NCBI GenBank assembly: GCA_001275005.1
Contig: JWZX01003324.1
Coordinates: 1 to 43,614, forward strand
Direction: 5' to 3'
Source of the DNA: Chrysochromulina tobinii
Taxonomy: Eukaryota
Length of the DNA stretch: 43,614 nt
Below, one piece after another: positions 3,515 through 24,811 of this stretch. Positions within the stretch are counted from its first letter, which is position 1; every line of letters starts with the position of its first letter. Below the pieces are notes generated by a model. It saw nothing but the letters and a program-made list of their open reading frames with translations, was not told the origin of the DNA and searched no databases. A program made the translations under genes and the position numbers.

Positions 3515-3798
3515 TAGGATTAGGAGTTTGAAGACATAAATTGATGAGGCGAACTCAAGACACACAACCGGGCGAACGAAACTCGTCTCGTCTCGCGCAC
3601 CCTGTGGGAAATCGTCGCCCGTTCCCTGGTTCAGTACAGACCTGTACAGTACTGTTGAGAACGAGGTCGAAGCGTGCGCGCGTGCTCAGGTATGCGGCGC
3701 CGCTTGCGACGCCGCCTGCGCATGCCTCGTATCTGTAGCGCAAGCGTGTGGTCACTTTCGCGAGTTTCGAGTCTCGCAGGCTCCGGTGGGCTCCTCTC

Positions 3799-6700
3799 AT
3801 GTCAACGAAATGGCTGTGGCGAGCGAACGAAGCACTCGCCGCGGAGACAGGGGCTGATGGCAGCGACGAGCGTAAACCAATACTCTTGAAAAGCGATTCG
3901 TTTGGTCGAAAGCTGGATAAGGAGAAGGTTGGAATCCGGAAACGGGTCAAAATATTGAGGAGACGACACCGGGTCTTGATATTGGCACGCATCCTTCTGG
4001 CAGTGCCAGGACCCGTCTTCTTGGTGTACTCAGCCATTCAACACTTTGAGGTCACTACCGCGGGGTGGTCTATCACGCAGGTTGAGACTGGGCGAAGTTT
4101 GGCGTTGGCTGTCGGGCTGATTTTAGCTCCGGTGTGGATTCTTTCGCTTCTCATTGCGCAGATCGATAGGAAACCTGCCCAGAAGTTCGCCATAGGCAGC
4201 CGCGTGTGCGTGAAGCGCAGCAACGGAGATAAGAGCTTTGGCTATGTGAAGGAGTACAATGAGAAGACGCGAGTCTACAAGTTGGAGCTCGCTACTGGTA
4301 CGCTCGAGAAATTCGATGAGGCGGCGATCGAAAAGAAACCGGCTCAAAGGTTCGCGAATGCCCAGAAGTTCGCCAAAGGCAGCCGCGTGTGCGTGAAGCG
4401 CAGCAACGGAGATAAGAGCTTTGGCTATGTGAAGGAGTACAATGAGAAGACGCGAGTCTACGAATTGGAGCTCGCTACTGGTACGCTCGATAAATTCGAT
4501 GAGGCGGCGATCGAAAAGAAACCGGCTCAAAGGTTCGCGAATGGCAGCCGCGTGTTGTTCGTGGAGCGTGGCAGCGAAGATAAGAGCTTTGGCTATGTGA
4601 AGGAGTACAATGAGGAGACGCAAGTCTACAAGGTGGAGCTCGATATTCCTACTGGTACGTTCAAGCAGTGTGGAGAAGACTCCATGCGAGATGCAAGTCC
4701 TGTGATCTCTCGGGAGCGTCTCGTGCGTCTCTGGAAATACTTCCTGAGTCTCTGGAAATGGGACCAACGGATCTGGACATGGCCAAAGGCCTTTGAGGCT
4801 GCTTTGTTTTGGGGCTGTGTCTATGGGTACGTAGTGCTCTACCAATCCAATGCTGCACCTAACTATTTGCTCGGCGCACTCATCTTCTGGGTTGTGTTAG
4901 GCCCGCCCGTGATCGCACTGATTTTGTACACGGTCACAAATATTGTGCGATCCATCATCGACTACCAGGACAACCAAAACGCCGAGTACCATACTTTTGT
5001 GAACTTGCAAGCTGCTCGGCTCAGCATCCTGACCATCTTCGGCGCCTTCCTGACCGTCTATGCTCTGTCGGCAATGTCGCGGGTGGTCATTCCATACAAT
5101 CTGGTGGTACCCTTTGTCGAGCTCGCATACAGAGACATCACCTGTACGGACCGGGACGCGTTCTGGACTGCGTTTAACGCTTCGTTCAAGAGCTTCAATG
5201 CTAGCTGCCATGCCCTGCCCAATTGCGGTTACGCTTCGTTCGAGAGCCTGTGCCAGGCCGTGCAGTACGCACCAATGGTGCAAGCTGAGAGCGTCGACAT
5301 TTTCAAAGTTCTCCTCTTCAATTGCGTAGCGTGGGTGCTCGGCTCGCTGCTCGTCTTTGGCACTGGCCGTGCAAGCCTAAAGAACGGCTACGCGCAACTA
5401 CTCTCCAAACACATGCTCGTCGCCATGGTGCTGGGCCTTGGGCAATCGATGAGTGCGTTCTACTCACTCATGCGCCTTTCTCTTCTCGTGCCAAAGCTGG
5501 GGCTGCCGCGCCCGGCTGCCTACTTTGACAAAACGGGGTTGATGTCTCTGGAGCTACCATTGTACTGCTATGGAAACACGTGCACGTACTACGATTTTGG
5601 CGGCACCATCATTGTGCACGTGCTCATCGTCGTTGCGTTCAACTTTGACTTCCTCAAAAAGTATGCGTCGGCCATCGGCGCCGGAGACCAAGCAGCCATC
5701 AAGAAGCTCAAAGAGAAGATGAGGAAGGAGAAGATTTGGAATGAGGAGATACAGAAGTACGAGTGCAAGTGGAGCGACGAGGCTCCTTATTTCTATTTCA
5801 TTCCAGCAACTTTTGTGAAAGAGTGCGATGACAAAAGGTTGCCTCCCATGCAGGTGCTCGACGACGACGAAATCCTGGAAAAGATACAAATCCGTCTCGT
5901 CGACGCGTTCGAACAGGCGGAGAAGGAGGCACGGATGGCGAAGGAGAAGGTGGCGGCCGAGAAGGCGGCGGCCGAGAAGGTGGCGGCCGAGAAGGTGGCG
6001 GCCGAGAAGGTGGCGGTCGAGAAGGCGGTCAAGGGCATTGACATTGGCAAGGGCATCGACGAGTCGACTCAATCGGACGAGAAGGAAGCGGCCGAGAAGG
6101 CGCCGGCCGAGGTGGCGGTGGCCAAGAAGGAAAATCAAGGCATTAACAAGGCATTGACAGGGCGAGGCATCACGTTCAAAATCAAGGACATCCTCGTCGT
6201 GAGCCATCGTTGGGAAGAGAATGGTCGGCCCGATGTCAACGGGGCGCAGCTGCAGGCCATCAAGGAGTATCTGAAGGAACACCCCGAGATCAAATGGGTC
6301 TGGTTCGACTATTCATCGATGCCCCAGAAAATCGGCCGCATCGACACTCGGTCTAAAGAGGAGAGGGCCGAGTTCCAACTGATGCTCGAATGCATCACCA
6401 ACCTCTACCTGACCGCGCAGGTCCTCATTCTCCTCGATGGGTCGTACGCGTCCAGGTTCTGGACGCTGACGGAGGCATGGTGCTCGATGCAGACGGCCAC
6501 AAAAGACGGGCTTCGGAATTCTATTTCCTCAACGGTGGATGCTGACTTTAAGGGCTCGGATGTGCAAGTCGGGTCGAGATGCACTATCAAGTGCATCCAC
6601 AACGCAGCTAAAGGAACGACAAGCAAGGGTCTTGTGGATCTGGTTGCCACACAGACACCTAAGGCAATGCATGGAATCCTCGAGAAGCCGGACGTGAACG

Positions 6701-6906
6701 TCACCAACGCAAAGGACAAAGAGACCATGCTGCCCAAGATCCTGGAGATCGATAAAGATGTCATTCAGGGCTTTAAGAACGGCTTTAAGAAGCTGCAGAG
6801 CAACCAGAACCCTTCTCCACAGCCAAACTCGGGAAAGCCAGCCAAAAAGGCTCAGGTTGCTCCTGCTGACTCCACCGGTGATGTCACTGCCTTCAACGAC
6901 CAGTGA
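3799..6906 (+). CDS. Polytopic membrane protein with 3 Tudor/SH3-like repeats and a C-terminal HET (heterokaryon-incompatibility/TIR-like) domain
   Basis: Intronless ORF, 1035 aa from ATG 3799, with about 8 hydrophobic helices. Three repeats GSRVCVKRSNGDKSFGYVKEYNEKTRVY. HET-type motifs in order: ILVVSHRW, WVWFDYSSMPQ, ITNLYLTAQVLIL, SRFWTLTEAW. Confidence 0.8.
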   Translation: MSTKWLWRANEALAAETGADGSDERKPILLKSDSFGRKLDKEKVGIRKRVKILRRRHRVLILARILLAVPGPVFLVYSAIQHFEVTTAGWSITQVETGRSLALAVGLILAPVWILSLLIAQIDRKPAQKFAIGSRVCVKRSNGDKSFGYVKEYNEKTRVYKLELATGTLEKFDEAAIEKKPAQRFANAQKFAKGSRVCVKRSNGDKSFGYVKEYNEKTRVYELELATGTLDKFDEAAIEKKPAQRFANGSRVLFVERGSEDKSFGYVKEYNEETQVYKVELDIPTGTFKQCGEDSMRDASPVISRERLVRLWKYFLSLWKWDQRIWTWPKAFEAALFWGCVYGYVVLYQSNAAPNYLLGALIFWVVLGPPVIALILYTVTNIVRSIIDYQDNQNAEYHTFVNLQAARLSILTIFGAFLTVYALSAMSRVVIPYNLVVPFVELAYRDITCTDRDAFWTAFNASFKSFNASCHALPNCGYASFESLCQAVQYAPMVQAESVDIFKVLLFNCVAWVLGSLLVFGTGRASLKNGYAQLLSKHMLVAMVLGLGQSMSAFYSLMRLSLLVPKLGLPRPAAYFDKTGLMSLELPLYCYGNTCTYYDFGGTIIVHVLIVVAFNFDFLKKYASAIGAGDQAAIKKLKEKMRKEKIWNEEIQKYECKWSDEAPYFYFIPATFVKECDDKRLPPMQVLDDDEILEKIQIRLVDAFEQAEKEARMAKEKVAAEKAAAEKVAAEKVAAEKVAVEKAVKGIDIGKGIDESTQSDEKEAAEKAPAEVAVAKKENQGINKALTGRGITFKIKDILVVSHRWEENGRPDVNGAQLQAIKEYLKEHPEIKWVWFDYSSMPQKIGRIDTRSKEERAEFQLMLECITNLYLTAQVLILLDGSYASRFWTLTEAWCSMQTATKDGLRNSISSTVDADFKGSDVQVGSRCTIKCIHNAAKGTTSKGLVDLVATQTPKAMHGILEKPDVNVTNAKDKETMLPKILEIDKDVIQGFKNGFKKLQSNQNPSPQPNSGKPAKKAQVAPADSTGDVTAFNDQ
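4177..4680 (+). repeat. Coding tandem repeat, three ~165-183 bp units (Tudor/SH3-like domain)
   Basis: Units 1 and 2 (from 4177 and 4360, period 183 bp) are nearly identical at DNA level; unit 3 (from about 4543) is more diverged. Confidence 0.95.
5944..6030 (+). repeat. 15-bp coding minisatellite (EKVAA/EKAAA)
   Basis: gagaaggtggcggcc-type unit repeated about 5-6 times. Confidence 0.9.
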
Positions 6907-11179: not shown

Positions 11180-12217
11180 TCAGCTGACGTCGGGCGCGAG
11201 GGGCGGCGGCTCCGGCGGCAGATCGTCGAGTAAGGGCGGCGGCTCGCTCTCAGGGTCAGCCTTTGCGATGACGGCCTTCTCGAGGGCCTCGGCCACCTGC
11301 TGCGCCGCCGCGTCCAGCGCGGACTCCATTTGCAACGCCGCGGCGTCGCCACTCCCTTTGCCGCTGCCGATCCCGCCAGCCGCGGCGAGCTCATCCAGCC
11401 CGCGCTGCACCACCTGGCTTGCTCGCTCGCAGCCGACGAAGCGGGCGATGGACCAGTCGGTGCCAGTCTGAGAAAAAGGCGCGAGCATTGTCCGCACGAG
11501 CAGGCGCAAGTCGAGCACCTGGAGCGCTCGAGGAGGCGGCCCAGGCTTCCCCACAGCCCTCCAAGTGAGCGTAAGCCCCTCGTGCGTGAAAAAAGCGGGG
11601 AGGACAGTTGGCGACTGAAGCTCCTCGCATAGAATCACCGGGATCTGCCAGTAACTAGGCAGCCCCGCCTTGTCGAGCTGCTGCACAAGGTGCGAGCGCA
11701 TGTCTTTCGTGAGAGCCGCCGATCCGCGGACCACAAATGGATGGTCGCCCTCGGCGTCCGCCCAGCCGACAACGAGCGCGAAGGCGTGCCCAAGCGGCAT
11801 GGCACCGAGAACGAGGTTGAGGTCGGCGCACGCTTGCTGCGCCTGCACTAGCGACCGCTGTGCCTCGTCCGGATCGATGAAGAAAGCACACACCGGCTCT
11901 GGCGACTGGGTACCATCGCTGTCGGAAAAGGTCATTGGCATGAATCGCTTCGCGCCACTCGAGGTGTGGTGGTTCATGATGGCGAACGTGGGTACAACGT
12001 CCAGTTTTGCAACGAGCTCTTGTATGCTCAGCTGCGGCACCTGTACAGCGGCTTGCGGAGCAGACCATGACGGCTTTGCCTTGGCTTTTGTGTTGGTCGA
12101 GCGTTCAGGCTGCGTGCTCCTCGGCACCGCGCGCTCCTCGGCGGCCCTGGCGACGGCAGCCGCGAGCAACAAGTCCTCGTCCTCGGCTACGAGTGAGCTT
12201 TTCGGTTTCTTGCCCAT
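11180..12217 (-). CDS. TIC22: Tic22-family protein
   Basis: Tic22-like motif order: LSIQELVAKLDVVPTFAIMN, FFIDPDEAQRSL, AMPLGHAF, IPVILCEEL, LPAFFTHEGL, LQVLDLRLLV. Probable start MGKKPK at 12217. Confidence 0.65.
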   Translation of the reverse strand: MGKKPKSSLVAEDEDLLLAAAVARAAEERAVPRSTQPERSTNTKAKAKPSWSAPQAAVQVPQLSIQELVAKLDVVPTFAIMNHHTSSGAKRFMPMTFSDSDGTQSPEPVCAFFIDPDEAQRSLVQAQQACADLNLVLGAMPLGHAFALVVGWADAEGDHPFVVRGSAALTKDMRSHLVQQLDKAGLPSYWQIPVILCEELQSPTVLPAFFTHEGLTLTWRAVGKPGPPPRALQVLDLRLLVRTMLAPFSQTGTDWSIARFVGCERASQVVQRGLDELAAAGGIGSGKGSGDAAALQMESALDAAAQQVAEALEKAVIAKADPESEPPPLLDDLPPEPPPLAPDVS

Positions 12218-12466
12218 GTCTCGGCCGTCCGCGTTTCTCCTTCCACGCGCGAGGAGCGAGCGAGGACGCCCGCGGCGGCGTCGATCGATGCGGTGAAACA
12301 CGGAGATACCGGGTATGCATCTCGTTTCCGCGGCACCGAGGTCGTTTTGTATCATACATGTACGAACAAAGGCGCCTCAGAACAGACATCTGAACACATT
12401 CGTGTTTTGTGAAAGTCTGTTCCTGGAACTTCCTCATTGTGCGAGCACGCTTCTCCCGCAACCGCG

Positions 12467-12925
12467 ATGGCGCAGCTCATCCTTGTCTCAGCGAGTTTGA
12501 CCGGCTTCGTGCCCGGCTTTGTGCAGCTGCAGCGATCGTCAGCAGCAGCCCACAAATCGGTGCGGATGCAAGACATGTGGGTCCCACCGAAAGATCTTGG
12601 TCCACTGCCAGATCTCAAAGGCTTGTTTCCCAGTGACGTGCAGTTCCTTGATGTCGATGGCGAGGAGCTCACCTTTCGCAGCAACGAAAACGGTGCAACG
12701 GTGCAGTACTGGGTAAACGGCAAGGGTCGTATGCGATCCGCTTCAATCAGAGAGGTAGACGGTTCGCTACAGATCAGTGGGACCATCAAGAAGCCAGTGC
12801 CACTCTTCTCACTCATCGGATTCAACCTCGAGGATTTTGTGACAGATGTTGCCACTCCGAAGGATCCTGCAGTCATGAAACAGGCTATGGCGCTCGTCGG
12901 ACGTGCGCCGCGAGAGGTCGTTTGA
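12467..12925 (+). CDS. Small unknown protein with a bipartite plastid-type presequence
   Basis: MAQLILVSASLTGFVPGFVQLQRSSAAAHKSVRM gives a hydrophobic signal, a GF-type cleavage motif and an S/A/R-rich transit-like peptide, followed by a globular-looking domain. Confidence 0.55.
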   Translation: MAQLILVSASLTGFVPGFVQLQRSSAAAHKSVRMQDMWVPPKDLGPLPDLKGLFPSDVQFLDVDGEELTFRSNENGATVQYWVNGKGRMRSASIREVDGSLQISGTIKKPVPLFSLIGFNLEDFVTDVATPKDPAVMKQAMALVGRAPREVV

Positions 12926-13405: not shown

Positions 13406-16172
13406 TCAAGCGACCGCGACGCTGCGCCGTCGCTCGGGCGATCTCGGTGCACGGCGGCTCAGCTGTGACGATGTGGCCGCAGGGGGATGCCCTTTGCCGG
13501 CGGCGGTACCTGCAAGGCTGTGCGCGGCACCGATGAATCGGGCTGCGCGCTCGGCGATCATGTTGGTGGGGAGCGCCAGCTGCGCGCCTGGGATCCGTGG
13601 CATGACGCTTGCGTCGACCACACGCAGCCCGCGGATGCCTCGCACGCGCAATTGCTCGTCCACAACGTGCCCAAGGCAGCAGCCCCCTGAGAGGCCGTTG
13701 GCCGAGTGCAGCGTCTCTCGGATGTACGCGTCCACGGCGGCGTCGCTCTGCACGTGCGCGCCAGGGTACACCTCGTCCAGGCTCACTTCGCCCAGTGCAC
13801 CGGAGGTGGCGAGCTTGCGTGCGAGTTCGATGCCCCGAGCGAGCGTCTGGCTATCCTCCGGGCTTGCGAGGTAGTTACACTTGATCTCGGGGGCCACCGA
13901 AGGATCGGCACAGGTGATGCGCACAGTGCCAGTCGAGCGTGGCCGGCAAGCGATCACCTGCAGGGTGAAGCCGGAATGGCCGTGCTGCACGCCCTTGCCT
14001 AGGAGCTCATACGCTTTCACTCCATCGGGGGATGGGCCAATCCCAGGGACGAAGCGCAGCTGAAGGTCTGGGAGCGCCGCATCCTTGGCGGGGCCGCCTC
14101 GCCCATCGGCCGATTTCCCCACACCATCAGAGCGCACAAAGGCACCATGGTCGCAGAAGGTGGTGCACAGGACGCCGCCGCCGCGCACCGCCCACTTGTA
14201 CAGCGCCAGAGGCGAGATGATGTCGAGCCCTAGCCATCCGAGAGGCTTGATCTCTGACAAGCCGTCGCGGATGGCCGAGTTGAACCCAACGGTCACAGCC
14301 GGGTGATCCTGCAATCCAGCACCAACGGCCGGAAGGGCATGCCGTAGAGGCACACCAGCCGCTGCGAGCACAGACGGAGGGCCGATGCCTGAGAGCTGCA
14401 GCACCTGAGGCGACCCAAGCGCACCCGCGGCCAAGAGCACCTCTCCGCCCGGCGCGAGTCTGATCGTCGAGCAGCTCGTCGAGCTCGCCGTGGTCCGCTG
14501 GCCCACCCCGGCAGGCAAAGCGCCGGCGGCGCTCGCGTGTCGTGCTCCGATGGCGCCGACGGCGCGCAGTGCCGCGCGCATGGCATGCGCCGCGGGCTCG
14601 GGCAGGTCAGGGGTGCGCCCCGGATCCTGGATGGCCGTGGTTTGCATGCGCCGCTCGAGGTACTTTGAGATGGCGACCCAAACGGCCGCCGCTTCGGGAG
14701 TGGCGGGTGCCGGAAGCGTCGTGTTGGGCCAGGCACCCGAGTCCGCGTTTCCAAATAAGGAAGCACCCTCGAGGAGGCACTCCGCAACAGCCAAGAGTGC
14801 TGCATCAACGGCGGTGGCGTCGGAGGCCGAGGAGCGCGCGAGGTCAATCTGCGTCCGCGGCTCTGGATGGACCGCGTCTCGAAGCACATACTCGTGGTTG
14901 CCAATGAGCTTACGAGCGGCAGTTCCCCAGTCTTCGGCGGTGCACCCAACCTCAGCCGTGTGCCAATCGCGTACCTGATTATGGAGGCGATTCGAGACCA
15001 TCACTGACGATTGACGACCATCAGGAGGCAATCAGCGACCCATCCGTGACCATCAGGAGGCATTCAGTCAGGCCAACAGCAGGTAGCCAGCGGTGAGGCC
15101 AGTCGCGTACGATTGCTTTAGAGGACGCGACGCCATTCTGCTGATGCTCGGTGCGCTCGAGACGATTCGCCAGAGCCCGCCAGAGCGGGTCGCTCTTAGC
15201 CAGCGCATGGCGCACGTGCCTATGCGCGCTCTTCAATTTCGCCGCCCGCGACGCGATCGTGACCTCCTTCACAGTCACACCGACCGCCGCGAGCTTTGCG
15301 TCGCCCGCAGCAGCTGAGGCAGCGAGCTCTACGCGTGCGACTACATATCCCGTGAGGATCGTCACATTGGGTCGGGCTTGCGCGATCGTCAAGTACGAAT
15401 TTGCACCCGTCCATCGCGTTCCATTGCGCTGTGAGAGCTCAAAACGACCGAATCCGACGGTGGCGTCGCTCGCGCCTTCTACCGCGGTGGAGAGCGCCGA
15501 ACTCCAGTCATTGAAGCCTGTCGGCTTCGGCTTCAGATCCGGGTGGATGCAGCCACGCGTGTTGTCGCACGTGCGCAAGAAGCGCGCCGAGAGCTCATGC
15601 TGGTAGTTGGGCACCTGCACTTGCATGCCGCACGTCGCCATCGGCTCCTGTTGACGAAGCTCGATGCGATCAAACTCAGCGGCGATCTCGTCCGTCGACC
15701 ACCCATTCCCCCATCCCTCATAGTCCCGCGGCGAGCCGCGAAATGCGAGCTGCGCGTTGAGGCAACTCGAACCTCCGAGCAGCTTGCCGCGGCAGAGGAA
15801 GATTCGTCTGCCCAAGCAGCCCGGCTCAGCCACCGTCTGCCAGCACCAGTCAAAGGCAGGATTTCGAAAGAGCTTGAGAATGGCCCCACTGATGCGTATG
15901 AAAAGGTTGTTGGGCGATGATGTGCCCGGCTCGATGACAAGCACACGCTTCGACGCATCCTCTGAGAGCCTCGATGCCAATACCGACCCGGCCAGGCCGC
16001 CGCCAACTATTATGTAGTCCCACTCGCCATCCGGAATCGTGCTACATGTGCGAATTAGGCTGCGCCGGTTACGCCTGACTACGGCCACTACAAGTGCCAC
16101 CACCAGCAGCGTAAACAGGCCCAGTGCCATCAGCATTGCCGAAGCGAGCTTCGATCTCAACTTTGAGATCAT
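13406..16172 (-). CDS. FAP: Fatty acid photodecarboxylase-like GMC oxidoreductase; exons 16172-15111 and 14974-13406 (876 aa)
   Basis: GMC motifs: DYIIVGGGLAG, RGKLLGGSSCLN, LAPGGEVLLAAGALGSPQVLQLSGIGP, LQDHP. FAP-type motifs: TFCDHGAFVR, LPDLQLRFVPG, PDGVKAY, FTLQVIACRPRSTG, LHSAN, VVDASVMPRIPGAQ. A phase-0 GT-AG intron (14975-15110) joins the two ORFs in frame. Start could be 16172 or 16136. Confidence 0.8.
14975..15110 (-). other. Spliceosomal intron (136 bp, phase 0) in FAP-like gene
   Basis: Minus strand ...gcaatc|gtacgcgactgg...ctccataatcag|gtacgcgattgg. Contains cctcctgatggtc repeats and restores the frame between ORFs. Confidence 0.85.
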
Positions 16173-16352
16173 TCCATTTGAACAGACGAAACTTATATTG
16201 TCGAAATTCTGAGGAGGGCGCAGCTTCCCAGTTCACTGCCCATGGGGAGGGAGCCGACTCCAGCTTGTCCGTAACCACTTTCTCAAGCTTGAGCTTCCGC
16301 GTCGTCGCTTCACGGGGTCGCGAATCCGCGCTGCGGCCGAATAGGTGGAGCC

Positions 16353-19300
16353 ATGCCGGCCATCATTCCCGATGGCGCGGCCGTTTGGATCAAGGATACG
16401 AACAAGGACAGTGTCGAACCCTTTGTCAAGGCGAAGGTAGTCAAATATACCGAGGGCCGTGGCTACACGATGTTCACGTCCGACGGCAAGGAGAAGATCG
16501 TGCGCCCAGTAGACTGTGCGCAGGCCAATCCTGATGGTATGTCGGCGCCCGACAATTGCTACCTGATCCACATTTCAGAGTCGACGATCCTCGCCAACAT
16601 GAAGGCGCGCTTTGCGAACAAGCTCATCTACACGTACACGTCCAACATCCTGATTGTCCTCAACCCTTTCCAGCCGCTTCCCATCTACGGCAACGACAAG
16701 ATGCAGCCGTACGTGAGCAAGCCGCTCGGGATAGCAGAACCGCACACGTACGCCATGGGCGAGGAGGCGTACAAGACGCTCGTCAAGACCCAGCGCAACC
16801 AGGCGCTCGTCGTCTCGGGTGAGTCAGGCGCCGGCAAGACGGAGACAAATAAGCATTTGATGACATTCCTCGCGTGGCGCTCCAAGTCGGAGACGGTGGG
16901 CAACGACATTGCTCAGGTGATGCTGCTGGCCAACCCGGTGCTTGAAGCTGTCGGCAACGCCAAGACCATGCGTAACAACAACTCGTCGCGCTTTGGAAAG
17001 TTCGTCAAGATCGCCATGTCAGAGAGGGGCGGCGTACTCGGCGCGGTGACGAACAAGTATCTGCTCGAGAAGTCGCGCGTGCCCTTCCAGTCGGCAGGCG
17101 AGCGCAACTACCACGTCTTCTACCAGCTCGTCGCGGGGCACAAGGGCAAGGCCGCGCTCGCCCTCGATAAGGGCGCGAGCTCGTTCCACTATCTCAACCA
17201 GTCCGGGACGACCGAGGTCAAAGGCGTCAACGATGCGGCGGACTTTGAGAGGCTGTGCTCGGCGATGGCGAGCACTAATATGGGCGGATCCGACCAGGAA
17301 GACATTTTCAAGCTCTTCGCCGCGCTGCTCCACTTGGGCAACATCAAGTTCAATCCGGGCTCGGATGAGGCCTCGATCTCGAGCGCGACGAGCGCCGCGC
17401 TCGCCAAGGGCGGGAGAGCTCTTCCAGGTACGCACGGACAGCACCCAGTGCACCCGAATCCGGGGGCCGTAGCCCCATCGTCCCTTGAGCGTGCCTCCCA
17501 CACAGCCCGCCGCCACCCGCCCGACCGCCGTCTCCCGATGAGTGCGTCCCTGATTGCGCGCGCCATCCCCGCGTCTTCGCAGGTGTCGAACCTCCAAAAG
17601 TGCCTGTGCGAGCGCACGATGACGACCATGGGCGAGACGATTGCGACCAAGCAGACGCCCGCGAAGGCGGCGCTCGCGCGCGATGCCCTCGCTAAGTCGT
17701 GCTACGCGCGTCTCTTCGATTTTATCGTCGAGCGCATCAACCTCTCCATGCGAGGAGCGGCCAAGGAGACGTCGACGTTCATCGGGCTGCTCGACGTGTA
17801 TGGCTTCGAGTCGTTCGCGATCAATACGTACGAGCAGCTGTGCATCAACTTTGCAAACGAGAAGCTGCAGCAGTTCTTTCTTCGCTTCGTCTTCAAGGCG
17901 GAAGAGGACCTGTACCGTTCCGAGAATGTCGCGTGGACCAAGATCGAGTATCAGGACAACCAGGGGTGCATCGACTTGATCGAGAAGATGCCTACGGGCG
18001 TGATGCGCTTGCTGGACGAGACGTGCAAGAAGCCCAAGGTCGAAGATAGCGCCTTCTGCTTGAGCGTGGCTGAGACGCTCAGGCGAAACGACTTTTTCAT
18101 GGATGCCCGCGGCGCTGGGCACAAGAACTACCGTCCCGACGAGGCCTTCGCCATCCGTCACTTTGCCGGCGACGTGTGCTACGTGGGCGAGGGCTTCTGC
18201 GACAAGAACAACGACACGCTGCATTCGGACTTCGTGGCGCTGTGCTCGGGCTCGGGCCACGGCGTGCTGCGCCAGCTCTTCGCGGAGGATGCGAAGGTGA
18301 AGAAGGCGAACACGTTCAATTCCGTCTCGCGTCGCTTCATCAACGATCTGAACACTTTGATGGAGGACCTCAACTCGACCAAGGCGCACTTTATCCGATG
18401 CATCAAGCCCAACAAGGAGCTCGAGGCGTTCAAGTTCACGCCGTCGCTCGTGCTCACGCAGCTGCGCTGCTCGGGCACCATAGACGCGGTGCAGCTCATG
18501 GCGGGCGCGTACCCGACGCGTATCCCGTACGACTCGATCTACAGCCGATATGCGAGTCAGATGCCCGACTTCGTTCGCAAGCTCGAGCCGCCGCTCTTCT
18601 GCGAGGCGCTCGCGCTTGCGCTAGAGATCTCAAACAAGGTCAGAGCTCTAGCTGACTGACGATCTGTTCAGATGGCCTCTGAAGGCCACTGGCTGCCTCT
18701 GATGGCCTTTGATGGCCACTGGCTGCCTCTGATGGCCTCTGATGACCACTGGCTGCCTCCCCGCTCAGCACTTCGCGCTCGGGCGCACCAAAATCTTCTT
18801 CAAGGCTGGTAAGGGGCAGGTGCTCGAGGAGCTAGCGGAGCGTGATCTCACCGAGGTGATCCCGGTCCTTGTCGCCAAGATCAAGCAGTGGGAAGTGAAG
18901 AAGAAGATGCAGGTTCGGCTGCAGGCGTACGCTCGCATGTTCATCTGGCGCAGGTACTTCAAGAGGGCGCACGTGGCGGTGCGGACTGTGCAGCACCGCG
19001 CGCGTGGACGCAAGATCCGCATCGAGTACCGCAAACGGCATCTCGCGTGGGTCGCGAAACGTGAGCGGGAAGAGGCAGAGCGTCGCAGGAAGGAGGCCGA
19101 AGAGCGAGCGCGCAAGGAGGCTGAGGAGCGGCGGCGGCAGGAAGAGGCAGCCGCGAAGGCCAGGGCCGAGGCCGAGGCAGCCGAAGCGGCCATTCGGGCG
19201 GCCAAGGACGCGGCGGCACGCGCAAAGGCCGAGGCCGAGGCGAAGGCGGCGGCTGAGGCTCAGGCAAAGGCCGATGCGGCGGCAAAGGCCGCGGCCAAAG

Positions 19301-22300
19301 CTGAGGCCGAGTCCAACGCGGCGGCGGCGAAAGCAAATGAGGCGGCGACCAAGAAGGCACCGACGATGGCGGACATCGAGGCGCAGGTGGCGGCCGAGGA
19401 GGCGGCTGCGCGGGAGGCGATCAAAGATACGATGGATTTGGGAGACATCGTCGTCGAGGTCGAGCTTCAACGTGGCCCCAACGGTCTTGGGCTCGATGTC
19501 GACCACTACCGCAGAGGCGCCACGATTGGGTTCATCGCGCCGGATGGCGTGGCGGCGCGCGACAGCCGTCTGCGCGTGGGGGACATGATCCGCGGCGTCA
19601 ACGGCGTCACCTGCGGTACGTACGACGAAGTCATTAATGTGATCCGTGCCTCGGGCGCCACCGTCAAGCTCACCATCTCGCGCAAGCCAGTGACGAAACT
19701 GCTCGAGACCAACATGCACATGGAGCTGGGCGCCTCGTCCCAGCGCACGTGGGACGAGTTCACCTTCCGGCTGTACTCGAACCGCGTGCTCACCTTTGAA
19801 AAGACGGAGCCGCCGGTCGTGACAGGCGAGATCGACGTGCGGCTGGCACTCGAGGTGCGCATGGTCGATGCGCCCAATGGCGGAGGGTTCCTTGAGATCG
19901 AGACCGCGTCGAAGACGTTCATCCTCCGCTCGGGCGACACGGACGTGCTCAACAAGTGGCGTCGCGAGCTGTACGAGCTGCTGCCCTACCTGCGCGCGAC
20001 CGAAGTCAAGTGTGGCTGGCTGCTCAAAAAGGGTGAGACGAGCTCCGCTGGCTTCAAACCGCGCTACTGCGTCCTCTTCTCTTCGTATCGTCTGCTGTAC
20101 TTTGATTCAGAGGCATGCACCAAGCGTAAGGGCGCCGTCGATCTGTCGGTGGCCCAGTCGGTCGAGTCGATCACGACGGCCAAGGGCCCCGGCTTCGAAA
20201 TCTCGACCCCCGGGCGCACGTGGGTCTTCGCGGCGTGCGAAAGCGACGCCAAGTCGACTGCTTCCGAGACGACCGCATGGATGGACACACTGCGCACGAT
20301 GCTCGGTGACATCCGGGAGCGCAAGCGAAAGCAGCAGATCTCCGAGGGCGTGATGCTTCTCAAGGAGGGGTGGGCCGACCTCAAGGACGAGAGCGGCGGC
20401 GGCGAGGGCGCGTGGGTGGGGCACTGGTTTGCGCTCAACTCGGCGGGCGAGCTGCGAATCTTCCCGGACGCGGAGTCGACCCAGGAGCAGATGGTGCGCC
20501 ACTCATGTTCACGGATTGTCACTGATGGTCTCTGAGTGTCCTATGATTGTCACGGATGGACTCTGTTGGTCTCTGATGGTCTCTGATGGTCTCTGATGGA
20601 CAGGTAGTGGACCCTGAATGGCCTGGATGGCCTCTGATCGCCTCTGATGGACTCCCTCAAGCGCCTCTTTGATGGCCTCCCTCATCACAGGTGCTCTCGG
20701 TCGACCTCAAGTTAATCGAGAGGGTCGAGCGCTCGAAGGGCATGGACTATTACGACTTCTGCATCGACCTGTGCTTCTCCGATAAGACGATCAAGATGCG
20801 CCCGATCGACCGCGGCGACATGCAGGCGTGGCTGGGCGTGCTGCAGACGCAACTCGCGAGCAAGCGAGAGAACACCGACAAGGGCTCGGTGATCACCATG
20901 CTGCATCAGGGCTGGATTGAGAAGCGTAGTGAGCGCGGCAAGGGGAGCGACGCGTGGAAGAAACGGTACTTCGTGCTCTGCACCAAGCAGGAGAAGGAGG
21001 GAGATGAGCTTGCGATTCACCATCTGCTCTACTATTTCAAGTCGGAGGAGAGCGCGGGCGACGTGTCAGAGGCGAATGGGTGCATTGACCTGGGCGAGGT
21101 CGAGGAGGTCAAAAAGTGCGAGAACAGGTTGATCGATCTCGTCACCGAGTCACGCGTCTGGCAGCTGCGGGCTGAGTCGAACAGCGACCAAGAGATCTGG
21201 GTCCGCCAGATCCAATCCAACGTTGGCGACGAGGCGGTCAAGAGCGGCGCGCCGGGCGGCGGCTCCAAGGACCAGCTCAAGGCAGCCGCCGGCGTCGTTT
21301 CGATCGCCAAGGCAGAGATGAAGATGCAGGTGCCCGGCCTTGACGGCCAAGCCTGCTGGAAGTCGGCCAAGTTTGACTTACAAAGCGACGGAGTGTTGCG
21401 CTGGTCGTCGAATGAGGCCCCTCCCTGGGACGCGGGAGCCATCGACATCAAGAAGGCGCTCGGCGTGTGGTTGCTCGGCCCGGCGGGATGGCGGCGGCTC
21501 GATATCATCTTGCCCGACCATCGATGGACCCTCGCGGCTGACGACGACAACCTTCTGCAGAAGTGGATCAAACTGCTCGAGAACGCAGCGCCGGAGAAGC
21601 CGGTGAGCGAGATCCGAAACGGCTGGATGGAGAAGAAGGGCGCGATGGGCGGCGGCTGGAAGGTTCGCTTCTTCGTACTCCTCTCGACGCACGAGCTGCT
21701 CTACTTCGAGAGCGATCGCTCGCCCAAGTGCAAGGGCGTCATCGACCTCAAGGAGGCAACCCAATGCACCCGCGTGGCCTCACCCGATTACAATTATGAG
21801 TTCGCCTTCGAGGTGGGCTCGCCCAAGCGCACTTGGATCCTGTGCCCGGATGACGAGCACTCCATGAAGGAATGGATGGCCGACATCAAGCAGCTGCTTG
21901 GCAAGGCGGGCCAGGCGAAGGAGAATAAGAAGCGCGCCTCGGTCCACCAGCACGGCAACCGCACGTACAACACCGAGGGCGTGGGCGAGGACGGCGGCAG
22001 CGCGGCGCAAGGCAACGGCTCGACGCCGTCGCTCAAGGCAGGATGGCTCATGAAGAAGGGCGAGGTGAACACGGCGTGGAAGAATCGTTATTTTGTGCTC
22101 AAGCCCGAGAACAAGTTCCGAGACCAGCCGAAGACACTATGGTATTATAAGGACCAGGACACGGCGCGCATGGGCAAGAATGGCTCGATGATCGAGGTGG
22201 AAGCGTCGGCGTCGATTCAAAAGGAGTCGGTCGAGGAGGCGGGCAAGTCGTTCGCCTTCGCCATCGTCACGCCCACGCGCAAGTATTGCCTGTGCGCCGT

Positions 22301-22736
22301 GTCCGCAGCGGAGCAGCAAGAGTGGATCACGATGCTTCAGAAGCCATCCCAAAATGAGGAGGTCCTCGACGCCAGAGCGACATCGTTCGCAGCGAGCGGT
22401 CCGCTGGTTGAGGTACACTCCGGATGGCTGCGCAAAAAGGGCCAGGGCCTGTTTGGGACGATGCACAAGCGTTACTTTGTGCTGTACGACAACAAGGAGC
22501 TCCATTACTTCACAGGGGAGTCGATGGAGAACATACAGCGCAAGGGCCGCATTAAGGTCGCGGACATCTCGTGCCTCGAGCGCCTCAAGCCCGGCAACAC
22601 GAAAGACTTCACCTTCTGCATCAAGGAGCCCAGCCGCGATTGGATCCTCGACCCTCTTAGCGGCGCGTCTTTGGAGGAGTGGACAAGTAAGCTGAAGCCC
22701 ATGCTGCCCAACTCGTCCAAGATTGTCAACTTGTGA
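16353..22736 (+). CDS. Unconventional myosin (motor-2xIQ-charged helix-PDZ-8xPH); exons 16353-17427, 17583-18638, 18769-20493, 20691-22736
   Basis: P-loop GESGAGKT, switch I NNNSSRFGK, switch II LLDVYGFE, HFIRCIKPN and converter LGRTKIFFK. IQ motifs LQAYARMFIWR and VQHRARGRKIR. PDZ RGPNGLGL...LRVGDMIRGVNG. Repeated PH motifs GWLxKKG...W. The first splice needs a 1-nt correction (see findings). Confidence 0.9.
17428..17582 (+). other. Spliceosomal intron 1 of myosin (155 bp)
   Basis: ttccag|gtacgc...cttcgcag|gtgtcg. Its translation interrupts the conserved motor domain with non-myosin sequence. Confidence 0.75.
18639..18768 (+). other. Spliceosomal intron 2 of myosin (130 bp, phase 0) with internal ~30-bp tandem repeats
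   Basis: aacaag|gtcaga...ccgctcag|cacttc. Repeats of gatggcctctgatggccactggctgcctct. Joins ISNK|HFALGRTK. Confidence 0.9.
20494..20690 (+). other. Spliceosomal intron 3 of myosin (197 bp, phase 0)
   Basis: cagatg|gtgcgc...catcacag|gtgctc. Contains tctgatggtc repeats and splits a PH domain in frame. Confidence 0.9.
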
Positions 22737-23347: not shown

Positions 23348-24811
23348 TCAGACCGCGCCCCACGAGTTCTTAAGCCGCTCCTCGATGAGCAGCACACACT
23401 CGCCCGCGGATACACCCGCCGCCATGCGCTCCTGCAGAGCCTCCCGCACGCTTGCATACCGTTGTAGCAACTGGCGTGCTTCGGCATACGCCCATCGCAC
23501 GCGCACCTCATCCTCCGAAGCACTCCAGCCGCCCTGGTCGACGTCGACATCGGCCGTGGCCTGACGCCGGCGCACCGCCCCAAGGAACTGCGGTGCGAGC
23601 GTTGGGTCCGCTTGGAGCAGCTCCCCGCGGTACTGGCTCGCCTCGAGCGCCACGGGCGCGAGTAGCCATATGAGGATGCGGTCGACCAGACGCGGCGCGC
23701 CACCAAGCTTGCGACCGTTGCGCCCGAGCATCTCGACCGGCTTGAATGCGGTCGGTGCGAACGCGCAGCAAGGGAGCCCGAGCAAGTACCCGAGTAGGAA
23801 CGAGGCCGACTCGACCGCACTCTCCCTGATGAGGTCACGAGAGAAGAGACGCGTGGAGCCACGCCCAATGAGCCCAAAGAGCTCGCCCGAGCGTGCATAC
23901 CGGTCGGCGCCCCACGCGCCGCCGAGCAGGACGGCCACGAGAGGCAGCGGCGGTGCCGCGACGTCGCCGTCCAGCACGTGCGCCAGCTCGAGGATGAGCA
24001 CGGCGCCAAGCCCGAGGCACAAGGCAGCAGCTGCGCCAACCTCCACCCCACGCTCATCCGAGGGAACTTTGGCGAGCCGCTCGAAATCTCGATTGGAAGA
24101 AGGCCGGTCCGATATGCGTAGCTGCGGCGTCGCAAAGCTGCGGCATGCTCCGTTCTCACGCGCGCCGGCCAATGAATCCGTGAGGACCTCAATGCCGCCA
24201 GCGCCGACGGCAGCATCGACCAACGCCTTGACGGCCGCACCGCTCATCGTGATCTGCTTGGCGCTCATTTCGCTGACGAGCTCGAGGACGTACGCCGCAC
24301 CTTGCAAACCATCCTTTTCTTTCGCGAGCAATGACAAGAGCACTGCATTGTACTTCTCTTCCGCTGGCAGCGATTCGAGGACCTGCTCGAGTGCACTGCC
24401 GCCAAATGCTCCTTGCAGCGCTAAGGCTGGAGGCGGCGAGGGCATCGGTGGTGGTGAAGGCGACGGAGGGCCCGAAGCCAACATTGCGATGGCAGTATTG
24501 TGCCGGCGGCGTCGAGAGGTTGATGAAGGCAGTGCTACTGACGGCGGCATGGACTGCATTTCCATATTTGAGAGCAAGGCCATCCGAGGCTGAAGGCTGC
24601 TGGAGGCTTTTCCGAGAGCGTACTCGGCAGGAGAGCTGGCAGGGCGCGATGATCGATCATCGTAGGCTGCATGTGGCAGGAAACCTGGGCTGCGCACCAG
24701 AGGCACGCAAGGCCCCAAACTGCCGAGCATCCCGAAGCGCAATTGCGGTGTGAGCCAGGTCTGGAGCTCGACTTCCCTTACGCCGGTCCTGTGAATGCTG
24801 ATGTGAAGCAT
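23348..24811 (-). CDS. M41/FtsH-protease-domain-like membrane protein (plant/cyanobacterial VIR3-like family), zinc motif degenerate
   Basis: Two hydrophobic helices, then LFSRDLIRESAVESASFLLGYLLGLP (family consensus HEAGHFLVAYLLGLP) and a C-terminal VRWAYAEARQLL...LQERMAAGVSAGECVLLIE. Start codon uncertain. Confidence 0.6.
   Translation of the reverse strand: MLHISIHRTGVREVELQTWLTPQLRFGMLGSLGPCVPLVRSPGFLPHAAYDDRSSRPASSPAEYALGKASSSLQPRMALLSNMEMQSMPPSVALPSSTSRRRRHNTAIAMLASGPPSPSPPPMPSPPPALALQGAFGGSALEQVLESLPAEEKYNAVLLSLLAKEKDGLQGAAYVLELVSEMSAKQITMSGAAVKALVDAAVGAGGIEVLTDSLAGARENGACRSFATPQLRISDRPSSNRDFERLAKVPSDERGVEVGAAAALCLGLGAVLILELAHVLDGDVAAPPLPLVAVLLGGAWGADRYARSGELFGLIGRGSTRLFSRDLIRESAVESASFLLGYLLGLPCCAFAPTAFKPVEMLGRNGRKLGGAPRLVDRILIWLLAPVALEASQYRGELLQADPTLAPQFLGAVRRRQATADVDVDQGGWSASEDEVRVRWAYAEARQLLQRYASVREALQERMAAGVSAGECVLLIEERLKNSWGAV

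What the first reader, a model, noticed from the sequence alone, without database searches (positions are those of the whole stretch)
13406..16172. Divergent fatty acid photodecarboxylase (light-driven enzyme) homologue with a membrane anchor
Seen plus recalled Chlorella FAP sequence: this GMC protein lacks the usual GMC catalytic pattern (HxxGTC...GN). It instead shows the FAP pattern: CDHGAF (Cys codon 14153-14155, equivalent to C432), LQLRFVPG (Arg codon 14054-14056, R451), PDGVKAY (G462/Y466), TLQVIACRP (Q486), LHSAN (H572/N575) and PGAQ (Q620); numbering is from memory. Differences from canonical FAP: Phe replaces Gly just before the catalytic Cys (TFC versus TGC), the MALD segment becomes IGPS, and the N-terminus is a strong hydrophobic helix followed by RRNRR (signal-anchor-like) rather than a plastid transit peptide. 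Inference: a possibly non-plastid, membrane-anchored photoenzyme paralogue with altered substrate range. Natural photoenzymes are rare and of biotechnological value.
Basis: partly seen in the sequence, partly recalled or inferred. Interest (0 to 1): 0.85.

Follow-up and report, generated by a model that had tools for sequence, protein, structure and literature searches.

The report
Anchored photoenzyme paralogue with phycoerythrin-like insert
A haptophyte alga has a second, intron-split relative of the rare light-driven enzyme fatty acid photodecarboxylase; it keeps the catalytic residues and likely still works by light, is predicted to be membrane-anchored, and carries an inserted 200-residue domain related to phycoerythrin that likely binds a second pigment.

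Summary
First, the gene is split by a 136-nt GT-AG intron (15110-14975), supported by RNA contigs, and gives one 876-aa frame. Second, about 210 extra residues sit inside the FAD-binding domain; 8 of 13 clade rows spanning the site have them. This insert is a folded helical module without a Pfam family. It is homologous to the C-terminal domain of Iota-class glutathione transferases (profile match 96%, E 3e-9; the solved Synechocystis protein was crystallised with FMN) and, more distantly, to phycoerythrin alpha, without the bilin cysteines. The module has 699 representatives, often in tandem arrays or fused to LOV, BLUF or rhodopsin domains. The enzyme part belongs to a distinct 23-row clade that keeps C432, R451, Y466, Q486, H572, N575 and Q620 and lacks the GMC histidine, with its own changes (G576, L621, F/Y431). 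The same species also has a canonical FAP, 42% identical. Best reading: a membrane-anchored photodecarboxylase paralogue with an accessory, probably flavin-binding module. Activity, ligand and location are untested. New variant of a known kind.

The parts
15111..16172 (-). Exon 1 (aa 1-354): N-terminal anchor, N-terminal half of the GMC fold, first helices of the insert. The real start may be the ATG at 16136
   Evidence: strain copies differ upstream of the second Met and some are called from it
14975..15110 (-). 136-nt GT-AG intron inside the insert, flanked by a 13-nt near-direct repeat (15098-15110 and 14962-14974)
   Evidence: junction contig in 2 of 3 RNA runs laid; the only GT-AG cut among the 9 that fit; TGATGG/CCTC repeats like those between the myosin exons
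13406..14974 (-). Exon 2 (aa 355-876 and stop): rest of the insert, substrate domain, active site, low-complexity basic tail
16077..16133 (-). Hydrophobic helix (aa 14-32), predicted signal anchor; RRNRR follows at 16062-16076
   Evidence: helix 19-40 in the model of relative P0014
15987..16004 (-). FAD-binding GxGxxG motif (aa 57-62)
14465..15263 (-). Insert (aa 304-524, intron included in the span) between two strands of the FAD-binding domain; the module core is aa 313-500 (15236-14537)
14150..14158 (-). Phe627-Cys628-Asp629, equal to Chlorella G431-C432-D433
14054..14056 (-). Arg661, equal to R451
14009..14041 (-). IGPSPDGVKAY segment with G462 (14021-14023) and Y466 (14009-14011) equivalents
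13958..13960 (-). Gln693, equal to Q486
13694..13708 (-). His777 (H572), Asn780 (N575) and Gly781 at the place of the GMC catalytic His (Ala576 in canonical FAP)
13577..13582 (-). Gln819 (Q620) and clade-specific Leu820 (T621)

Best explanation
The spliced gene encodes a second fatty-acid-photodecarboxylase-type flavoprotein that likely still decarboxylates a fatty acid under blue light, is predicted to hang by one N-terminal helix from a membrane outside the plastid stroma, and carries an inserted helical module, homologous to the Iota-GST C-terminal domain and phycoerythrin alpha, that likely binds a second small chromophore, most plausibly a flavin. Shown: exon structure, residues, clade, homology of the module. 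Taken from the established FAP mechanism (PMC12177928, passages): excited FAD takes an electron from the carboxylate, CO2 leaves, back-transfer and a proton from the Arg/Cys/water network give the alkane. Inferred: Phe at 431 and the Gly-Pro turn at 457-458 reshape the acyl tunnel, so the substrate is probably shorter or bound differently; the anchor with its basic C-terminal flank puts the catalytic body on the cytosolic face of the ER or outer chloroplast-ER membrane; the module is accessory, since 5 of 13 clade rows lack it, and would act as a flavin-holding photoprotective or regulatory part rather than in the core chemistry. My odds for the steps: photodecarboxylase 0.7, anchored outside the stroma 0.7, module binds a chromophore 0.45.
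For: Best solved relative and best fold match are Chlorella FAP (Foldseek E 1.8e-50, TM 0.89 on the target for relative P0014, model pLDDT 88.7). C432, D433, R451, G462, Y466, Q486, H572, N575, Q620 in 23 of 23 clade rows; C432S and R451A/K are nearly dead in CvFAP (10.1101/2025.10.10.681628, passage). The GMC His and Asn pair, present in 6 of 6 bacterial GMCs, is Gly and Ala here. Clade plus canonical FAPs 100/100 against 6 bacterial GMCs. Intact frame and expression: junction contigs; 12 of 19 coding differences to another strain are silent and none hits a FAP residue. Module: A2 against Iota-GST C-terminal alignment 96.1%, E 3e-9; top VIA-align rows 9r0w (GST iota with FMN; Z 9.4, rmsd 2.9, 104 aligned) and phycoerythrin alpha (Z 8.7, rmsd 3.9, 111 aligned) among 48,161 chains; all 40 listed Foldseek rows are phycobiliproteins. 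Family-invariant Trp, Asn, Asp, Gln and Arg residues are kept in the window's insert. All 9 clear partner domains among 146 family proteins are light sensors or a flavoenzyme.
Against: No activity, ligand or location was measured. Flavin-proximal positions differ from canonical FAPs: G576 (23 of 23 against 1 of 98), L621 (23 of 23 against 2 of 98), L/M623, and F/Y431 (19 of 23 against 0 of 98) could block the tunnel. The structural scores of the module are middling for a helical protein (the tool warns below Z 13; Foldseek E 0.015 or weaker, TM 0.46). The window's own insert is among the most diverged: below threshold against the Iota-GST profile, 45%, E 2e-4 in hhalign. I could not see where FMN sits in 9r0w. 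One of three RNA runs showed only the unspliced form and unspliced contigs exist in the other two. One clade row (P0022) has no anchor. No background test was run for the partner-domain enrichment.
Confidence: 0.5

Rival explanations
1. It is a FAP-derived flavoprotein that no longer decarboxylates fatty acids: a membrane-bound light sensor or a catalyst of another photoreaction, with the module as a signalling or docking part.
For: Clade-wide changes around the flavin and tunnel (G576, L621, L623, F431, Q172, A/T174); long stem branch of 0.48; the module's other partners are LOV, BLUF and rhodopsin domains; a canonical FAP already exists in the species.
Against: Every residue tied to FAP chemistry is kept in 23 of 23 rows; the basal rows P0021-P0024 keep G431.
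Confidence: 0.22
2. It is a plastid-targeted duplicate FAP whose hydrophobic N-terminus is a signal peptide, and the insert is an inert passenger.
For: In secondary-plastid algae FAPs begin with a signal peptide (10.1101/2020.06.23.166330, passage); a sister relation to the haptophyte canonical FAPs is not rejected (AU p 0.129); 5 of 13 rows lack the insert, which needs 3 changes on the tree.
Against: The helix is longer and more hydrophobic than in canonical FAPs (3.0 against 1.55 for the species' own canonical FAP) and leaves only 17-23 residues before the first strand; invariant polar residues of the module are kept in all inserts.
Confidence: 0.16
3. It is an ordinary dark GMC oxidoreductase, as the public label 'choline dehydrogenase' says.
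For: Public name of the 312-aa fragment KOO21913.1; NCBIfam best family is choline dehydrogenase.
Against: No catalytic His or Asn; scores far under the family cut-off (353 against 605 for full-length P0014); groups with FAPs.
Confidence: 0.04
4. The gene is broken in two or decaying, and the 800 bases in the middle are intron or junk.
For: Two separate ORFs in the DNA; unspliced contigs in RNA runs; databases hold the halves as separate proteins.
Against: Junction contigs restore one frame; intron-less relatives encode the same insert in one 790-850-aa ORF; a profile of 295 non-GMC module copies matches across the junction at 114.8 bits.
Confidence: 0.04

Closest known systems
Fatty acid photodecarboxylase (CvFAP, PDB 5NCC/6YRU; canonical Chrysochromulina tobinii FAP KOO25289.1 / A0A0M0JFC3)
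   Same: GMC fold, C432/R451/Y466/Q486/H572/N575/Q620, no GMC His; 42-43% identity in the C-terminal half.
   Different: Separate clade; G576, L621, G457-P458, F431; predicted signal anchor; about 210-residue insert where canonical FAPs have a short turn; occurs beside a canonical FAP although most algae have one.
Iota-class glutathione transferase C-terminal domain (Synechocystis Sll1902, PDB 9R0W, in complex with FMN)
   Same: Collinear profile match over about 90-120 columns, E 3e-9; best structural match; shared Asn, Arg and D-M motif; an N-terminal Trp helix is present in 46 of 56 GSTI sequences and likely equals the module's first helix.
   Different: No GST catalytic domain; the module is contiguous and has its own invariant D, TQ, R and GR motifs; FMN binding is not shown for it.
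Phycoerythrin alpha subunit (CpeA)
   Same: Same helical arrangement from helix Y on (Z 8.7-9.0, 111-113 aligned); the first 11 PDB sequence hits are phycoerythrin alpha types, best E 2e-4; CpeA 16.1 bits against at most 5.8 for shuffles and 4.6 for ten other phycobiliproteins.
   Different: No Cys at the 82 or 139 equivalents in the window's insert and no invariant Cys in the family; not paired with a beta subunit.
DNA photolyase with antenna chromophore
   Same: Analogy only: a flavin photoenzyme with a second chromophore (PMC12177928, passage).
   Different: Unrelated folds; here the acceptor would be oxidised FAD, for which a flavin donor has poor spectral overlap (own knowledge), so an antenna role is less likely than protection or regulation.

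Membership tests
Fatty acid photodecarboxylase (FAP) | GMC fold with FAD-binding GxGxxG, closest to CvFAP | tested here: met
   (fold on relative P0014, 56% identical to the window protein)
Fatty acid photodecarboxylase (FAP) | C432 and R451 (strictly conserved in 198 putative FAPs, 10.1101/2020.06.23.166330, passage) | tested here: met
   23 of 23 clade rows; codons 14153-14155 and 14054-14056
Fatty acid photodecarboxylase (FAP) | GMC catalytic His absent | tested here: met
   Gly781; His in 6 of 6 bacterial GMCs
Fatty acid photodecarboxylase (FAP) | Ala in place of that His (criterion recalled from Aleksenko 2020, paper not held) | tested here: not met
   Gly in 23 of 23 clade rows, Ala in 97 of 98 canonical rows; so filed as a FAP-like variant, not a canonical FAP
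Fatty acid photodecarboxylase (FAP) | Branches within the algal FAP clade | tested here: inconclusive
   With FAPs at 100/100 against 6 bacterial GMCs, but sister (with P0089) to the sampled FAPs at weak support 81/80; no named red-algal FAP in the set; AU p 0.129 for a haptophyte duplication
Fatty acid photodecarboxylase (FAP) | Plastid targeting | tested here: inconclusive
   Hydropathy and charge favour an uncleaved anchor; no targeting predictor available
Fatty acid photodecarboxylase (FAP) | Light-dependent fatty acid decarboxylation | not testable with these tools
   needs enzyme assay
Choline dehydrogenase / classical GMC | Catalytic His plus Asn/His pair; family cut-off score | tested here: not met
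Phycobiliprotein (insert) | Phycobiliprotein helical fold | tested here: met
   moderate scores, supported by sequence
Phycobiliprotein (insert) | Bilin-linking Cys82/Cys139 and Pfam PF00502 cut-off | tested here: not met
   no Cys at these places in the window's insert, none invariant in 303 family domains; PF00502 only E 0.097 in 1 of 8 rows
Iota-GST C-terminal module (insert) | Sequence homology over the domain | tested here: met
   96.1%, E 3e-9; 98 of 146 family proteins reach 10 bits with the GSTI profile against 1 of 146 reversed; reversed alignment 0.26%
Iota-GST C-terminal module (insert) | FMN binding by this domain | not testable with these tools
   only the PDB title names FMN; the paper was not found

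The most novel reading that the evidence does not exclude
A natural two-chromophore fatty acid photodecarboxylase: a cytosol-facing, membrane-anchored photoenzyme in haptophytes whose inserted phycoerythrin-derived domain binds a flavin and protects, feeds or gates the catalytic FAD. The domain would define an undescribed family of algal flavin-binding modules that also build tandem pigment arrays and join LOV, BLUF and rhodopsin photoreceptors.
Probability: 0.27. Interest if true: 0.92.

Novelty: new variant of a known kind. Interest (0 to 1): 0.78.

Why it matters
FAP is one of three known natural photoenzyme classes, is thought to be one gene per alga and plastid-bound, and its use is limited by photoinactivation and chain-length range. 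A second clade with a different flavin pocket, a predicted anchor and an accessory domain offers natural variants to test for both problems and suggests hydrocarbon formation outside the thylakoid. Separately, the insert exposes a large unnamed domain family linking phycoerythrin alpha, Iota GSTs and algal photoreceptors, in organisms that have no phycobilisomes; small stand-alone members make its ligand easy to test.

Tried and rejected
No whole genome is held, so the canonical FAP was found through cluster look-ups instead. Pfam and NCBIfam give the insert no family. ESM Atlas gave no usable hit for the insert or for a stand-alone member. Phage and plasmid searches with the module found nothing credible; one genome contigs locus (L019) was a 19-residue chance match and its genome had no hit. 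The word-index searches recovered few module proteins (2 and 8), far fewer than the profile search, so they say little about range. Direct profile comparison of the inserts with a single CpeA is weak (3%, E 0.015); the link runs through the family and the Iota-GST domain. A complex prediction of two copies of P0370 with FMN gave no verdict. The idea that the whole 800 bases are one intron was rejected. A bilin-linked antenna was rejected for lack of cysteines. A second read-laying gave no data, so splicing rests on four runs. Three papers were not held. Earlier findings of the scan held nothing.

Full report
Observation. The window is eukaryotic (myosin, topoisomerase II, kinase and actin-like neighbours). 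The finding covers two minus-strand frames, 15021-16232 and 13406-15031. Each half has Chlorella FAP as its best solved relative, about 28 and 8 orders of magnitude ahead of the next GMC. The cluster that holds the C-terminal half contains KOO21913.1, a 312-aa 'choline dehydrogenase' of the haptophyte Chrysochromulina tobinii on a contig of the window's length; that public model is a mis-spliced fragment.

Gene structure. Of 18 runs listed, 14 are RNA runs holding 75-92% of the sampled words. I laid 3 RNA runs and 1 run of unknown kind. In 2 of the 3 RNA runs a 52-base contig matches 15098-15132 with one other letter and has 17 loose letters that equal window 14945-14961. Of 24 cut positions tested, 9 give exactly one mismatch, all remove 136 bases, and only 15110/14975 reads GT-AG; it yields one open frame of 876 aa. 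The tool itself listed no joint. Unspliced contigs also occur (depth 5.1 against 19.2, and 8.2 against 8.4), and the third run shows only the unspliced form, so either DNA or retained introns are present. Against the fourth run, 12 of 19 coding differences are silent, none touches a FAP residue, and six extra bases in the anchor keep the frame. The start may be the second Met (16136), because strain copies differ upstream of it.

A separate clade. A homologue search with the C-terminal domain listed the best 120 of 173 hits: 22 rows at 54-100% identity, then 98 FAP-like rows at 47% or less. With the window, the 23 clade rows all keep C432, D433, R451, D461, G462, Y466, Q486, H572, N575 and Q620. 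They differ from the 98 others at 576 (Gly 23 of 23, against 1 of 98), 621 (Leu 23 of 23, against 2 of 98), 457-458 (Gly-Pro 23 of 23) and 431 (Phe or Tyr 19 of 23, against 0 of 98). Six bacterial GMCs have His at 576 and Asn at 622; the window has Gly and Ala. In a 46-row tree with the insert site removed, the clade has 100/100 support and groups with FAPs at 100/100 against those six GMCs; it sits with the unnamed row P0089 (93/88) beside the other 28 FAPs (81/80). I left 22 of the 68 rows of the quick tree out for run time, and both trees use a subset of the 120 hits. A sister position to haptophyte canonical FAPs is not rejected (p 0.129), so the age of the clade is open. The same species has a canonical FAP, KOO25289.1 / A0A0M0JFC3, the one cloned as ChFAP in 10.1101/640474 (passage); it is 42% identical over the C-terminal half. 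10.1101/2020.06.23.166330 states that most algae have one FAP (passage).

The N-terminus. Ten of 11 clade rows examined (4 are strain copies of this gene) have a hydrophobic stretch of mean 2.0-3.0 followed by a net charge of +2 to +5, ending 17-23 residues before the first strand; 9 of 11 pass 2.2, against 1 of 36 canonical rows with a long enough N-terminus. By the positive-inside rule (own knowledge) this is an N-out anchor with the enzyme on the cytosolic side. P0022 lacks it. A cleavable signal is not excluded.

The insert. Between Chlorella positions 316 and 332 the window has 229 residues. Eight of 13 clade rows that span the site have 195-268; five have 11-38; 81 of 82 canonical rows have 14-24. 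Relatives carry it within a single ORF. The model of P0014 (810 aa, 56% identical to the window protein) has pLDDT 88.7 with a well-formed helical bundle at the insert, and matches FAP best. The window's joined protein itself was not folded. A profile of eight inserts found 699 representatives at E 0.001 or better among 1.84 billion, 150 listed, many with 2-11 copies. A profile rebuilt from 295 non-GMC copies scores the window at 114.8 bits across the splice junction; this is partly circular, since those copies were found with the inserts. Pfam scans of the 146 new proteins show clear partner domains in 9: five PAS/LOV (four with the NCRFLQ motif), two rhodopsin fragments, one BLUF, one GMC; two marginal hits (DUF2114, BssS) had no passing stretch. 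The only named members seen are from Chrysochromulina and a Prymnesium MAG; 10 of the 146 were looked up.

What the module is. The same profile's first 11 PDB hits are phycoerythrin alpha types (best E 2e-4). The folded insert (pLDDT 85.5) returns only phycobiliproteins in the 40 Foldseek rows listed, none under E 0.001. VIA-align over 48,161 chains ranks 9r0w, Synechocystis GST iota 1 in complex with FMN, first (Z 9.4, rmsd 2.9, 104 aligned) and phycoerythrin alpha second (Z 8.7); these are tied and middling for helical proteins. PMC4138524 (passages) says GSTIs end in a 120-140-residue domain that could correspond to phycoerythrin alpha. I fetched 119 metagenome loci with a GSTI motif; one checked matches 9r0w at E 8e-197. 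Their C-terminal domains match the FAP inserts at 96.1%, E 3e-9, and the stand-alone family at 96.0%; the reversed control gives 0.26%. The GSTI profile gives 10 bits or more to 98 of 146 family proteins, against 1 reversed, and aligns CpeA end to end at 17.3 bits; the FAP inserts score only 4-9 bits and the window's falls below threshold, though hhalign still pairs it collinearly (45%, E 2e-4). The bilin cysteines are missing, while Trp, Asn, Asp, Thr-Gln, three Arg and Asp, nearly invariant in the family, are kept in the window. Such a set suggests a ligand pocket (inference). Flavin is the best guess from 9r0w and the partners, but I could not confirm that FMN sits in this domain.

Mechanism. 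The core chemistry is taken from FAP (PMC12177928, passages; 10.1101/2025.10.10.681628, passages). Bulky residues in the tunnel shift CvFAP towards short acids (G462 variants, 10.1101/640474, passages), which makes a similar effect of Phe431 plausible but unproven. The module is dispensable in part of the clade, so it is accessory. Energy transfer from FMN to oxidised FAD has poor overlap (own knowledge), so photoprotection, flavin holding or regulation ranks above an antenna.

Novelty. Ten searches of the held library (listings seen, plus passages of six papers, among them PMC13436692, which had nothing on this) showed no description of this clade, of a FAP with an inserted domain, or of this module family. 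The library lacks most subscription papers, the journal version of the FAP survey and Aleksenko 2020 (recalled only), and the bioRxiv supplement with 198 putative FAPs is closed; it may list insert-less members of the clade. I rate it a new variant of a known kind, interest 0.78.

Noticed in passing
P0184, P0368: A second, non-FAP GMC lineage carries the same module at a different site in the substrate domain (two copies in P0184, which also has an N-terminal hydrophobic helix). By raw spacing P0368 lacks the GMC His and also the FAP Cys and Arg: an independent insertion into another odd GMC.
   Followed up: partly
P0233-P0378: Proteins made almost only of tandem module copies (up to 11 stretches, 1319 aa) and stand-alone 150-270-aa forms, none with a Pfam family; candidates for pigment arrays or polyproteins.
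   Followed up: partly
P0260, P0297, P0250, P0274, P0277, P0285, P0292, P0298: Fusions of the module to double LOV proteins (two look RGS-LOV-like by a recalled motif), rhodopsin ends and a BLUF domain: possibly undescribed algal photoreceptor architectures.
   Followed up: partly
L020-L099: Iota GSTs have a Trp helix near the N-terminus (46 of 56) that seems to complete the C-terminal module, so the GST core may itself be inserted into the module.
   Followed up: partly
P0089, P0095: Unnamed FAP-like rows that share Gly457 and Leu621 with the clade but keep Ala576; P0089 is its sister at 93/88. Their organisms are unknown.
   Followed up: partly
window 16353-22736 +: Myosin gene with PDZ and several PH domains, head to head with the FAP-like gene; the two ATGs are about 180 bases apart.
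   Followed up: no
window 3739-6906 +: 1055-aa frame in a lower-GC stretch (0.53-0.56) with three internal repeats of about 45 aa, several hydrophobic segments and a heterokaryon-incompatibility-like looking tail (recalled); no Pfam or NCBIfam hit.
   Followed up: no
window 11180-12925 and 23348-24811: Three frames without Pfam hits; 11180-12376 resembles Tic22-type proteins by eye (recalled, untested) and 12413-12925 starts like a plastid-targeted protein.
   Followed up: no
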